Positions 19,762 to 23,589 of a stretch of DNA of 64,000 nt are shown piece by piece. Position 1 is the first letter of the stretch. Each line of letters begins with the position of its first letter. Position numbers and translations under genes: made by a program. Below the pieces are notes generated by a model that saw only the letters and a list, made by a program, of their open reading frames with translations, was not told the origin of the DNA and ran no database searches. This DNA comes from the human T2T-CHM13v2.0 reference genome, Homo sapiens, in assembly GCF_009914755.1 (NCBI RefSeq), contig NC_060936.1, one strand, 5' to 3'.

Positions 19762-20999
19762 TGTTATGATTTGAATGTATGCATCCCTCCAAAATTCATA
19801 TGTTAGCAGCTAATACACAAGGTGATGGTATTAGAAAGTGGGGCCATCGGAGGGTGATTAAGTCATAAGGACTTCACCTTTATGAATGAGATTTTGTGCT
19901 TACAAAAGGGCTTGAGGAAGTGAGTTTGCCCCTTCTTCTCTTCTGCTATGTGAGGACATAGAGTTTGTCCTCATCAAAAGATGCAGCAACAGGGCACCAT
20001 CTTGAAAGCAGAGAGAGAAATTTTACCAGACATCAAATCTGAGAGATTTGTTTGGTGTTACGTATAGATGATGTCTGGTAATTAATGAGACAACAGAATG
20101 TTGTAGGATTTGCTGTCTTGGCTACTGTAACTCATACTACACATCTACAAGACTGTTGTTTAAATAAAATGTAGATAATTAATTCTCAATTTGCTTATAA
20201 ACTGAGTAATGCTGTACTATAATGTGAACCCAAGAACATGTTGGAAAACATCCACTGAAAAATATATAACACTAAGAAAATTGCTGTGATAACAAACCTA
20301 CAATTCTGGCCAAATAGAGCAGATATGTTGTTATTTGTGGTAAATCTAATAAAGCAGGTTATTTGAGCTTATTTGTGTTGCTACTGTAGAAAGTAGAATC
20401 TCCACTCTCTCAAAAATGTTTAACCAGTATATACAAAGTAATTCGTCACCAAAAGCAACTGTCTTATTTTAATATTCAAATTTTCTGCTTGTTTCTCCTT
20501 TACTAAATTTAAAACTCTTTATTGAATACATTCTCAGAGCAATTCTACTTTCTACCAAATCTGCCAGCAACTTGGTCTTGGACTTCCCAGCCTCCAGAAC
20601 TGCGAAAAATATATTTCTTTTTCCGTTTTTCTTTTTTCTTCTTTCTTTTTTGAGATGGAGTCTTGCTCTGTCAGCAAGCTGGAGTGCAGTGGCGTGATCT
20701 CGGCTCACTGCAACCTCCACCTCCTGGGTTCAAGCGATTCTCCTGCCTCAGCTTCCCGAGTAACTGGGACTACAGGCACGTGACACTATCCCCAGCTAAT
20801 TTGTGTATTTTTTAGTAGAGATGGGGTTTCACCATGTTGGCCAGGATGGCCTCAATCTCTTGACCTTGTGATCTGCCTGCCTCTGCCTCCCAAAGTGCTG
20901 CGATTACAGGCATGAGCCACTGCGCCTGCCCATATTTCTGTTATTTATAAATTATCCACTCTCAGTATTTTGTTATAGCAGCAGGAACAGATTAAGATA
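19762..20999 (+). mobile_element. MST MaLR solo LTR, interrupted by a templated insertion (20042-20555) and an antisense AluS (20627-20930)
   Basis: TGTTATGATTTGAATG...CCCTCCAAAATTCATATGTT start, GGACTTCCCAGCCTCCAGAACTG, TTGTTATAGCAGCA end; 5-bp TSD ATGTT (19757-19761 / 21000-21004). Confidence 0.85.
20040..20555. repeat. Local duplication of 22531-23036 (direct part plus inverted part)
   Basis: 20040-20398 aligns to 22531-22885; 20394-20555 is the reverse complement of 22873-23036; about 90% identity by eye. Confidence 0.92.
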
Positions 21000-21224
21000 A
21001 TGTTTTAAAATGAAGAGGACTAGGGCTCACAAACTGAAACAAGACTATTCTGAATAGCCCAAAGTGACCAAAGTAAAAGAAATCAGACTGAACTACCATT
21101 AAGGGAGCTGGTTCCCAAGAGAAAGTGGTGACTTGGCAGAGAAAAGTTGGTGGAAGTTATTGGACAAATCAATCATTCAGATTTACACCACAATGAGTTG
21201 AGTCAGTTTTAAAAACAAGTTGCA

Positions 21225-21745
21225 TAATGTGGAGATGTGTGCCAGTGTCCCCCAGTATGCTTTCTACCGATTCTTTTATAGATTTGCAAATAGATTTGCA
21301 ATTCTCAGCTGAGCAAATGTCCACTGAGAATCAAGAATACACTTTCTATCCTGCATTGCAGCTAGGTCTGAACATTTGACTAATTCTAGACAATGGAATA
21401 TACATGGAGACACCCTGTAGTTTGGAGACCTCCTTTAAAAGCCATGATCTAATACCCTTTGCTTTCCCCATCCACTTTCTTCTTCAAGCATTCTTACACA
21501 CTACTTCTTAAGATGTGAAGTTAGTGACTGGAGCTATAGCTAGCGTTTGGGATCATGAGGATAATGGTCACAGCCTCAAGATGACAGAAGCGCAACTAAG
21601 AATTCAGAATTCTTGGAAAATTTTCAAAGTAGAAAAATCACACCAGCCCTGGTCAGCCTACCTCCTTCTACTTGAAAAAGGAAAAAAAAATCTCTATTTT
21701 TAAAGCCACTGTCATTTTAGGCCTCTGTAACACAGCTGAACCTAA
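21225..21745 (+). mobile_element. MLT1 (J/K-like) LTR
   Basis: TTTAAAGCCACTGTCATTTTAGGCCTCTGTAACACAGCTGAACCTAAT 3' end. Confidence 0.6.
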
Positions 21746-22071
21746 TTTTATATGAAATATATACAAATTATATTATCACAAATAATCTATAAGTTCAAAC
21801 ATAAAGAAAAAAAGAACTATATAGTACCTCTTCACCTCAATTTAGTCAAAATAACATAGACACTAAAACCAACATTTATGGAGACCTTATGCAAGGAATT
21901 TTACCAATGGCTTCATATGCATTATTTCTTTCATTTTCTTAGTAACAGCTCTATAAATGTGTAACATTGTATACATCTTAGAGATGGAAAAGTGAAGACT
22001 TAAAGAAGTTAAATAATTTGCCCGAGGTCACACGGCAAGTATGTGTAGAATCATAATAAAAATCTACTCTT

Positions 22072-22380
22072 GGCCGGGCCTGGCAGCTCACACCTGTAAT
22101 CTCAGCACTTCGGGAGGCCAAGGTGGGTGGATTGCTTGAGCTCAGGAGTTTGAGACCAGCCTGGGCATAACAGTGAACCCACCTCTACAAAAAATTAGCT
22201 GGGCATGGTGGTGTGCACCTGTAGTCCCAGCTACTCAGGGGGCTGAGGTGGAAGGATCACTTGAGCCTGGGAATTTGAGGCTGCAGTGAGCCATGACCAT
22301 GCCACTGCACTCCAGCCTGGGCAACAGAGCAAGACCCTGTTTCCAAAAAACAAACAAACAAACAAACAAACAAACAAAAA
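22072..22380 (+). mobile_element. AluJ with (AAAC)n tail
   Basis: Alu dimer. Confidence 0.9.
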
Positions 22381-23589
22381 TACCATTCTATCTTACTCCT
22401 CTAAAGTCATGCCATTAGCCACTGTACGTTACACCTGCATAGAGGTTCTTCTGGCAAAGATTTATTCATATGGAGATCTTAGACAAATTGAACCACAATA
22501 AAATTTCGTAGAATTTTAATAATCTATAAATGAGGGATTTGTTTGATGTTAGATATAGGTGATGTTTGGTAATTAATAAGACAACAGAATGTTGTAGGAT
22601 TTGCTATCTTGGCTGCTATAACTCATACTACACGTCTACAAGACTGTTGTTTAAATAAAATGTAAGTAATTAATTCTTAATTTGTTTATAAACTGAGTAA
22701 TGCTGTACTATAATATGAACCCAATAATATGTTGGAAGACATCCACTGAAAAATATATAACACTAAGAAAATGCTGTGATAACCAACCTACAATTCTGGC
22801 CAAATAGAGCAGATAAGTTACTTGTGATAAATCTAATAAAGCAGGTTATTTGAGCTTATTTGTGTTGCTATTGTAGAAAGCAGAACTTCTCTGAGAATGT
22901 ATTGAAGAATGAGTTTAAATTTAACGAAGAAGGTGAAACAAACAGAAAATTTGAACATTAAAATAAGACAGTTGCCTCTGGTGACCAGTTACTTTGCATA
23001 TACCAGTTAAACGTTTTTGAGAGTGTAGAGATTCTAATTCACTGGCGTTACTTCAAAAAACTACATTTAGGAATACTCCTCAGAGAACCAATAATTACTT
23101 ACGTTGGGCCCACCCCATAGTAAAAGACTTGACACAGTGTAGATGTTTAATATATATTCGATAATGAAAGAACAGATGAGTGGAGATGAATTGATGGTGG
23201 TTAGGTAGATAAATGAGTAGATGGTTGAATAAATAAACATAAATTGTGCTTTATCAGTTTCAAGTAATTTTTACAGGGATTATCTCACTTGATCCTCAAA
23301 AGCATGCTGATAGTAGGTAAAAGAAGTGAGATTATTCTTACTTAAAAAATAAAACATTGGTTCCAAAATTTTGAGAGATTTACCTAGATTGACTTACTAT
23401 GTGAATCCTTGTCTCCCATAAACGTAAGATAATTTAGCTTGTTTACTGTTTGAGGAAAGGAAGGAGGAGAAGAGGGTCAGGAGAGGGAGGGGGGAGGAGG
23501 AGAAGAGGAGGAGGAAGAGGAGGAGGAGAAAAATACCTGTGTTATGATGTATTTCTTGAACAGGCCATGATACTTCACTCTCACATGCC

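What the first reader, a model, noticed from the sequence alone, without database searches (positions are those of the whole stretch)
20034..23036. Tail-less local templated insertion with inversion inside an MST LTR
Seen: 20040-20398 copies 22531-22885 directly, and 20394-20555 is the reverse complement of 22873-23036. Thirteen nt (GTAGAAAG.AGAA) are used in both parts, and there is AGAA microhomology at the inversion junction. The insert splits the LTR motif ACCAGACA.CAAATCTGCCAGC and duplicates CAAATCTG (20034-20041 / 20556-20563). Identity is about 90% by hand count (19 mismatches in ~213 nt). Read on the minus strand, the geometry is that of L1 twin priming (inverted 5' part, collinear 3' part, TSD), yet there is no polyA and the donor is only 2.5 kb away. 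Inference: either a nascent minus-strand intronic RNA was reverse-transcribed back into its own locus (RNA-templated repair), or a DNA template switch (MMBIR or Pol theta) occurred and was fixed in an ancestral primate.
Basis: partly seen in the sequence, partly recalled or inferred. Interest (0 to 1): 0.8.

Follow-up and report, generated by a model that had tools for sequence, protein, structure and literature searches.

The report
Old local copy-paste insertion, half inverted
About 514 bases of unique human DNA were copied long ago from a spot 2.5 kb away into an old retroviral LTR, with one third of the copy back to front; it is a clean single fossil of template-copying break repair, not a new kind of element.

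Summary
Window 20040-20398 is a direct copy of 22531-22885 (330 of 355 aligned bases identical). Window 20394-20555 is the reverse complement of 22873-23036/39 (141 of 161 identical). The two parts share a 13-nt overlap.

The copy sits inside a multi-copy LTR. An 8-bp duplication (CAAATCTG) flanks it, and that word occurs only once in 11 of 11 paralogous LTR copies.

In the whole T2T genome the donor matches only itself and the two insert parts. Control repeats searched the same way gave 776 to 8216 candidates.

Both 3' ends of the broken target were extended on the same (minus) donor strand. That is the geometry of twin priming. But there is no poly(A), no L1 nick site and no annotated gene, so "intronic RNA" is unsupported.

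Sequence alone cannot tell a DNA template from an RNA template. I favour DNA-templated, microhomology-primed break repair or template switching (0.55) over RNA-templated repair (0.3).

A 264-kb scan found three more genome-unique local duplications, so local copying as such is ordinary here.

Divergence of 8.7% suggests an age of roughly 20-45 My. Interest is moderate to low.

The parts
19761..20041 (+). Left part of the interrupted LTR (multi-copy, MaLR-like by recall)
   Evidence: blastn against 11 paralogous copies gives homology from about 19761 to 20041. The whole-genome search gave 776 first-look candidates, of which 40 were scored; the 39 other than the query itself were 69-77% identical.
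20034..20041 (.). Left copy of the target-site duplication CAAATCTG (the last two bases, TG, could also come from the donor)
20040..20398 (+). Direct copy of donor 22531-22885
   Evidence: 330 of 355 aligned bases identical, 2 gap events
20386..20398 (+). 13-mer GTAGAAAGTAGAA at the end of the direct part
20394..20555 (-). Inverted copy of donor 22873-23036/39
   Evidence: 141 of 161 aligned bases identical, 3 gap events
20543..20555 (-). Second copy of the same 13-mer, inverted, at the end of the insert
20556..20563 (.). Right copy of the target-site duplication CAAATCTG
20556..20621 (+). Middle part of the LTR
20622..20933 (-). Separate Alu-like insertion that also splits the LTR. It is not part of the event. 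The name Alu is recalled from the sequence.
   Evidence: The paralogous LTR copies skip this stretch.
20934..20999 (+). Right end of the LTR
22531..22885 (+). Donor segment A, copied directly
22873..23039 (+). Donor segment B, copied in inverted orientation. It overlaps A by 13 nt (22873-22885).

Best explanation
This was a one-off, DNA-templated repair of a chromosome break inside the LTR. It probably happened in the germline of an anthropoid or catarrhine ancestor.

The break kept an 8-nt overlap on both ends, which is why the target-site duplication exists. The left 3' end (...CAAATCTG) paired through TG with the minus strand of unique DNA 2.5 kb to its right and copied 22531 to 22885.

The stretch 22873 to 23036/39 was copied from the same minus strand. 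Either the right 3' end did this, or the same nascent strand did it after switching templates at the TAGAA/TTCTA microhomology. The products were joined at that microhomology. The result is a direct part, an inverted part and the 13-nt overlap.

My favoured sub-model is inference only. After 5'-to-3' resection of the right arm, the strand left single-stranded is exactly the minus strand that served as template. In that case the break copied its own resected arm. This would be a long-range version of the trans and snap-back templated synthesis known from polymerase-theta end joining and from microhomology-mediated break-induced replication.

Shown: the anatomy, the uniqueness of the donor, the direction of copying, the template strand, and the microhomologies (2, 5 and 0 nt). 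Inferred: the nature of the template (DNA), the enzymes, the resection model and the date.
For: - Donor and insert are the only copies in the 3.1-Gb assembly. Control repeats searched the same way gave 776, 8216 and 5055 candidates.
- All 11 paralogous LTR copies are uninterrupted at the site. By my arithmetic, the two flank alignments overlap by exactly 8 nt in 8 of the 11. One search agrees.
- Both flanks are followed, 5' to 3' from their own 3' ends, by plus-sense donor sequence, so a single template strand was used (coordinates).
- No RNA or L1 hallmark is present: no poly(A), no AATAAA or ATTAAA upstream of the template's 3' end, and a nick site of TCTG/CC.
- The substitution pattern shows no asymmetry of the kind RNA editing or cDNA deamination would leave: 5 T>C, 2 C>T, 8 A>G and 6 G>A in the direct part.
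- The template strand is the one that resection of the right arm would expose. This has a 1-in-2 chance by luck.
- Microhomology lies at the two junctions where synthesis would have been primed (TG and TAGAA).
- Local genome-unique duplications are common here. Three more were found in 264 kb: two inverted and one direct.
- A population long-read survey lists 311 inverted duplications. Most have 1-15 bp of microhomology and the authors attribute them to a replicative origin (PMC12350158, passages).
Against: - Nothing in the sequence excludes an RNA template.
- A clean 8-bp target duplication together with abutting direct and inverted footprints is exactly what twin priming gives. In L1-expressing cells 10 of 32 twin-primed insertions had short duplications at the inversion breakpoints (PMC11702581, passage).
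- The right junction has 0 nt of microhomology. That fits a ligation or a reverse-transcriptase-like template jump better than polymerase priming.
- By recall, polymerase-theta templated inserts are tens of nucleotides long and are copied from within about 100 nt of the break. Here 514 nt were copied from 2.5-3.0 kb away.
- The resection sub-model rests on one event and one binary agreement.
Confidence: 0.55

Rival explanations
1. RNA-templated repair with twin-priming geometry. A non-polyadenylated minus-strand transcript of 22531-23039, still near its own locus, was reverse-transcribed from both 3' ends of a staggered break. The reverse transcriptase could have been L1 ORF2p acting without its endonuclease, polymerase zeta or polymerase theta. 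The two cDNAs were then joined at TAGAA.
For: - The geometry needs a single template strand and abutting footprints with a 13-nt duplication, as in twin priming (PMC11702581 passages).
- A target-site duplication is present.
- RNA-templated break repair exists in human cells and runs independently of L1 and polymerase theta (PMC12065846, abstract and section headings).
- Templated insertions that lack poly(A) have been ascribed to reverse-transcribed RNA patches (PMC5110952, passages).
- The 0-nt right junction is tolerable for twin priming. In that study 71% of 5' junctions had 2 bp or more of microhomology, so 29% had less.
Against: - No gene or transcript is annotated over the locus (supplied annotation).
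- There is no poly(A) and no polyadenylation signal, and the primary nick site TCTG/CC does not fit TTTT/A.
- The event fits neither published class of templated sequence insertion. Class 1 needs poly(A) and the L1 site. Class 2 has no target duplication.
- The 8-bp duplication is shorter than the 12-18 bp seen with twin priming in L1-expressing cells.
- No editing or deamination asymmetry is seen.
Confidence: 0.3
2. Two-step history. First came a plain direct copy or a different insertion, and a later inversion or second insertion produced the inverted third.
For: The inverted part is more diverged than the direct part (12.4% against 7.0%).
Against: - The difference is not significant (p = 0.063).
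- A simple inversion cannot create the second, inverted copy of the 13-mer.
- Both 13-mer copies share T where the donor has C, which points to one copying event from one template state.
- Only one target duplication brackets the whole insert.
Confidence: 0.06
3. Capture by end joining of a ready-made extrachromosomal double-stranded fragment that already had the structure A + inverted B. Such a fragment could come from an aberrant replication product of the donor. It would have entered a staggered break whose overhangs were filled in.
For: The outer junctions have little or no microhomology (2 and 0 nt). A filled-in 5' overhang would also give a target duplication.
Against: It needs an extra unobserved intermediate. 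It gives no reason why the donor should lie only 2.5 kb away on the same chromosome, or why the two footprints abut.
Confidence: 0.06
4. The two loci are independent copies of a repeat family or a DNA transposon. An 8-bp duplication would suit a hAT element.
For: An 8-bp target duplication is the hAT length (recalled).
Against: - Whole-genome searches with 509 nt, and with 1021 nt at E up to 10, find only this pair, whereas control repeats return thousands of candidates.
- The insert has no terminal inverted repeats.
- One copy is rearranged relative to the other, with shared breakpoints.
Confidence: 0.02

Closest known systems
L1 twin priming (5'-inverted L1 or retrocopy insertions)
   Same: A target-site duplication. 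One part inverted and the other collinear. Both copied from one template strand. A short duplication (13 nt) at the inversion breakpoints and microhomology at the inversion junction.
   Different: No poly(A) tail. No TTTT/A nick site. The template is not L1, Alu, SVA or an mRNA. The duplication is 8 bp rather than 12-18 bp. The donor lies 2.5 kb away in cis. An RNA intermediate is not shown.
Replicative template switching (FoSTeS/MMBIR) and the inverted or complex local duplications of human structural-variant catalogues
   Same: A nearby donor in cis. Segments in direct and inverted orientation. Junction microhomology of 2-5 nt. A size of a few hundred bp (median 284 bp for 277 inverted duplications, PMC12350158).
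   Different: The copy is dispersed, 2.1 kb from its donor, not adjacent to it. It is bracketed by a clean 8-bp target duplication. One junction has no microhomology.
Polymerase-theta end joining with templated insertions (trans and snap-back modes)
   Same: 3' ends prime on flanking single-stranded DNA through very short microhomology, and the products are joined by annealing. The template strand here is the one that resection exposes.
   Different: The scale. Here 514 nt were copied from 2.5-3.0 kb away. Published inserts are, by recall, tens of nucleotides copied from close to the break.
Templated sequence insertion polymorphisms (TSIP), classes 1 and 2
   Same: Insertion of a copy of unique genomic sequence at a break.
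   Different: Class 1 requires a target duplication plus poly(A) plus the L1 site. Class 2 lacks a target duplication. This event has the duplication only, and it has an internal inversion.
Short-range template switching in great-ape genomes (PMC7954356)
   Same: A strand switch to a nearby template creates an inverted copy. It is fixed in the lineage.
   Different: By recall, those events replace short local stretches in situ. This one is a 514-nt insertion at a distance with a target duplication.

Membership tests
L1-mediated twin-primed retrocopy | Target-site duplication flanking the insert | tested here: met
   CAAATCTG lies on both sides and is single in 11 of 11 paralogous LTR copies. 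The length of 6-8 bp is at the low end.
L1-mediated twin-primed retrocopy | Inverted 5' part plus collinear 3' part from one template strand, with a small deletion or duplication at the breakpoints | tested here: met
   Read on the minus strand, 22873-23039 is followed by the inverse of 22531-22885, with a 13-nt overlap.
L1-mediated twin-primed retrocopy | Poly(A) tail at the 3' end of the insert | tested here: not met
   The insert abuts the duplication directly (...CAAATCTG|AGAGATT...). There is no T or A run.
L1-mediated twin-primed retrocopy | First-strand nick at a TTTT/A-like site | tested here: not met
   The primary nick would be TCTG/CC. The opposite-strand nick, TTTG/AT, is only a weak resemblance (consensus as quoted in PMC5110952).
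L1-mediated twin-primed retrocopy | RNA template (a transcribed donor) | not testable with these tools
   No expression data are available. The supplied annotation shows no gene at the locus.
TSIP class 1 | Target duplication of 5 bp or more, a poly(A) 10-30 nt after a cryptic signal, and a TTTT/A site | tested here: not met
   Only the duplication is present.
TSIP class 2 | No target duplication, with end-joining features (microdeletion, microhomology, untemplated bases) | tested here: not met
   A clean 8-bp duplication is present, with no deletion and no untemplated bases.
Microhomology-mediated replicative template switching (FoSTeS/MMBIR type) | Templated segments from nearby sequence, in direct and/or inverted orientation | tested here: met
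   The donor is 2.1-2.5 kb away in cis, with one direct and one inverted segment.
Microhomology-mediated replicative template switching (FoSTeS/MMBIR type) | Microhomology at every switch junction | tested here: inconclusive
   TG (2 nt) at the left junction, TAGAA (5 nt, 7 of 8) at the inversion junction, and 0 nt at the right junction.
hAT-type DNA transposon | 8-bp duplication plus terminal inverted repeats plus multiple copies | tested here: not met
   No terminal inverted repeats. Only this pair exists in the genome.
MST subfamily of MaLR LTRs (identity of the target) | Match to the MST consensus in a repeat library | not testable with these tools
   No Dfam or RepeatMasker library is available. 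What is shown is a multi-copy element of about 405 bp whose paralogues are 69-77% identical. The MaLR-like look is recalled.

The most novel reading that the evidence does not exclude
The insert is a fixed germline fossil of RNA-templated double-strand-break repair in a primate ancestor. A local, non-polyadenylated, unannotated minus-strand transcript was reverse-transcribed from both ends of a staggered break that L1 endonuclease did not make. That would be twin priming without any retrotransposon hallmark. If so, genomes should hold a countable class of such tail-less local retro-patches, and the contribution of RNA-templated repair to genome evolution could be measured from sequence alone.
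Probability: 0.27. Interest if true: 0.7.

Novelty: new member of a known kind. Interest (0 to 1): 0.35.

Why it matters
On its own this is a neutral scar in a gene desert with no sign of function. Its value is as an unusually legible junction set. It has a unique donor, an unambiguous empty-site model from the paralogous LTR copies, a target duplication, a 13-nt overlap and three junctions with 2, 5 and 0 nt of microhomology.

It shows that twin-priming geometry can arise without any L1 hallmark. Geometry alone should therefore not be used to call retrotransposition.

It also suggests a concrete test that uses sequence only. In a genome-wide set of such events, one can ask whether the template strand follows the resection rule (the strand whose 3' end points to the break) or the direction of transcription. 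That would separate DNA-templated from RNA-templated repair in germline evolution.

Tried and rejected
- **Multi-copy repeat.** Rejected by whole-genome searches with positive controls.
- **DNA transposon.** Rejected: no terminal inverted repeats and no other copies.
- **Donor itself an insertion.** I found no duplication flanking 22531-23039 by eye.
- **Signatures of an RNA or cDNA intermediate.** I looked for A>G or C>T asymmetry and found none.
- **Different ages of the two parts.** Not significant (p = 0.063).
- **Scan for similar events.** It found three other genome-unique local duplications and one LTR pair of a high-copy family. None of them combined direct and inverted parts. I saw no clean target duplication at the two I inspected, and I did not inspect the third.
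- **Literature.** Searches for 'templated sequence insertion' with 'target site duplication' and 'microhomology', 'templated sequence insertion' alone, and twin priming with template switch, inverted duplication or target site duplication turned up no description of a tail-less, duplication-flanked, locally templated twin-primed insertion. These three searches do not show that none is in print. I did not open Supplementary Table 17 of PMC12350158, which gives the counts of interspersed and complex duplications.
- **Primate orthologues, Dfam and RNA-seq.** None can be reached with these tools.
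Full report
**Observation**

I read 19800-23300 and ran the repeat finder on 19000-24500.

The finder gave three collinear direct blocks: 20040-20281 against 22531-22772 (92%), 20278-20329 against 22768-22819 (94%), and 20330-20398 against 22817-22885 (94%). 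It also gave two inverted blocks: 20391-20500 against 22930-23039 (87%) and 20506-20555 against 22873-22922 (84%).

Gapped alignments join these into two parts.
- The direct part is 20040-20398 = 22531-22885. It has 330 matches, 25 mismatches and 2 gap events.
- The inverted part is 20394-20555 = the reverse complement of 22873-23036. It has 141 matches, 20 mismatches and 3 gap events. Local homology runs on to 23039.

Overall, 45 of 516 aligned pairs differ (8.7%; Jukes-Cantor distance 0.093). The two parts differ in divergence (7.0% against 12.4%), but not significantly (Fisher p = 0.063).

The 13-mer GTAGAAAG.AGAA is found three times in the 64-kb window, where 0.01 is expected. The three places are the end of the direct part, the end of the insert in inverted orientation, and once in the donor.

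**Is the donor a repeat?**

The window's own 3.1-Gb assembly can be searched.
- The 509-nt donor matches only itself and the two insert parts (2 first-look candidates, both scored).
- A 1021-nt stretch that includes the donor's flanks gives the same three matches even at E up to 10.

The method does see repeats. The LTR flank 19800-20041 gave 776 candidates, of which 40 were scored; the 39 other than the query itself were 69-77% identical. Two other LTR-like repeats gave 8216 and 5055 candidates.

**Which copy is derived?**

I aligned eleven paralogous copies of the LTR (L005-L015) to the two flanks of the insert.
- None of the 11 has extra sequence at the site.
- By my arithmetic on the coordinates, the ends of the left-flank and right-flank alignments overlap by exactly 8 nt in 8 of the 11.
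- The other three (L007, L011, L012) have small length differences of their own.

So the ancestral LTR carried one CAAATCTG, and the 20-kb copy is an insertion with a 6-8-bp target duplication. The range arises because TG could come from either the target or the donor.

The LTR runs 19761-20041, 20556-20621 and 20934-20999. It is also split by an unrelated Alu-like element at 20622-20933.

The donor has no flanking duplication and lies in unique sequence. No outgroup genomes were available, so direct proof from orthologues is missing.

**Anatomy and what it implies**

From the 3' end of the left flank (plus strand, ...CAAATCTG) the insert reads donor plus-sense, 22531 upward. From the 3' end of the right flank (minus strand, ...CAGATTTG) it also reads donor plus-sense, 22873 upward. 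Both ends therefore copied the donor's minus strand. The two footprints abut with a 13-nt overlap.

The junction microhomologies are as follows.
- Left junction: TG (2 nt).
- Right junction: none.
- Inversion junction: AGAA in today's sequence.

Both insert copies of the 13-mer carry T where the donor has C. The donor therefore most likely changed afterwards, and the original inversion-junction microhomology was TAGAA (5 nt; 7 of 8 with the flanking AA).

**RNA or DNA?**

No RNA or L1 hallmark is present.
- There is no poly(A).
- No AATAAA or ATTAAA lies upstream of the would-be RNA 3' end.
- The primary nick site would be TCTG/CC, not TTTT/A.
- The supplied annotation has no gene here, so 'intronic' is unsupported.
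- The substitution pattern shows no editing-like or deamination-like asymmetry.

The event fits neither published class of templated sequence insertion. Class 1 needs a poly(A) and the L1 site. Class 2 has no target duplication (PMC5110952, passages).

On the other side, twin priming in L1-expressing cells gives just such abutting breakpoints: 22 of 32 had short deletions and 10 of 32 had short duplications (PMC11702581, passages). RNA-templated break repair independent of L1 and polymerase theta has been shown in human cells (PMC12065846, abstract and headings).

For DNA, the points are these.
- Inverted and complex local duplications of a few hundred bp with 1-15-bp microhomology are a recognised class of human variation, attributed to replicative template switching (PMC12350158, passages; PMC7954356, abstract in the listing).
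- Polymerase theta extends 3' ends on templates in cis (snap-back) and in trans (PMC4912351, abstract in the listing).
- In my own observation, the template strand is the one that 5'-to-3' resection of the right arm of the break would leave single-stranded. The donor distance of 2.5-3.0 kb is within long-range resection (recalled).

That last agreement has a 1-in-2 chance by luck and is an inference. I put DNA-templated repair or template switching at 0.55, RNA-templated repair at 0.3, and the remaining rivals together at about 0.15.

**How unusual is it?**

I did a self-comparison of 264 kb (the window plus 200 kb upstream) and kept only low-depth pairs less than 5 kb apart. Besides this event it gave four pairs.

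Whole-genome checks showed that three of them are genome-unique.
- An inverted pair of 276 nt at 84% identity with a 303-nt spacer.
- A direct pair of 99 nt at 91% identity, 2.2 kb apart.
- An inverted pair of 128 nt at 78% identity with a 985-nt spacer.

The fourth is an LTR pair of a high-copy family.

Local copying of unique DNA is thus common in this region. The composite of direct plus inverted parts with a clean target duplication was seen only once.

**Age**

With d = 0.093 and t = d/2µ, a recalled neutral rate of 1.0-2.2 × 10^-9 per site per year gives about 20-45 My.

There is also an internal yardstick. Two LTRs of what is probably one element, 14 kb away (6206-6566 and 8101-8457), are 85.1% identical. 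By my arithmetic that is a Jukes-Cantor distance of about 0.17, so this event is roughly half as old as that element. Both estimates are inference.

**Verdict**

This is a real, well-resolved, single ancient templated insertion with an inverted part. The RNA version has no positive support beyond geometry.

It belongs with known local templated or complex duplications. It is a useful type specimen and suggests a genome-wide strand-rule test, but it is not a new kind of element.

Noticed in passing
L028:6789-7064 and 7367-7643 (chr12:13,928,789-13,929,643 of the assembly): A genome-unique inverted duplication of 276 nt at 84% identity with a 303-nt spacer. I saw no clean target duplication. It looks like a fold-back or template-switch product older than the event studied.
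   Followed up: partly
L029:5766-5864 and 8075-8172 (chr12:13,937,766-13,940,172): A genome-unique direct duplication of 99 nt at 91% identity, 2.2 kb apart. Its distance and age are similar to the studied event, but it has no inverted part and no obvious target duplication.
   Followed up: partly
L020:4912-5039 and 6024-6150 (chr12:13,846,912-13,848,150): A genome-unique inverted pair of 128 nt at 78% identity with a 985-nt spacer.
   Followed up: partly
window 6206-6566 and 8101-8457: A direct pair at 85% identity, 1.5 kb apart, from a high-copy family (8216 first-look candidates; other copies 87-90% identical). It is probably the two LTRs of one MaLR-type element (THE1-like by recall). I used it as a rough local clock.
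   Followed up: partly
window 20622-20933: An Alu-like element in minus orientation splits the same LTR 66 nt downstream of the studied insert. The paralogous LTR copies overlap by about 9 nt across it, which suggests it has its own target duplication.
   Followed up: partly
window 20394-20555 versus 20040-20398: The inverted part is more diverged from the donor than the direct part (12.4% against 7.0%) and richer in transversions (8 of 20 against 4 of 25). The difference is not significant (p = 0.063), but lower-fidelity synthesis of that segment would produce exactly this pattern.
   Followed up: partly
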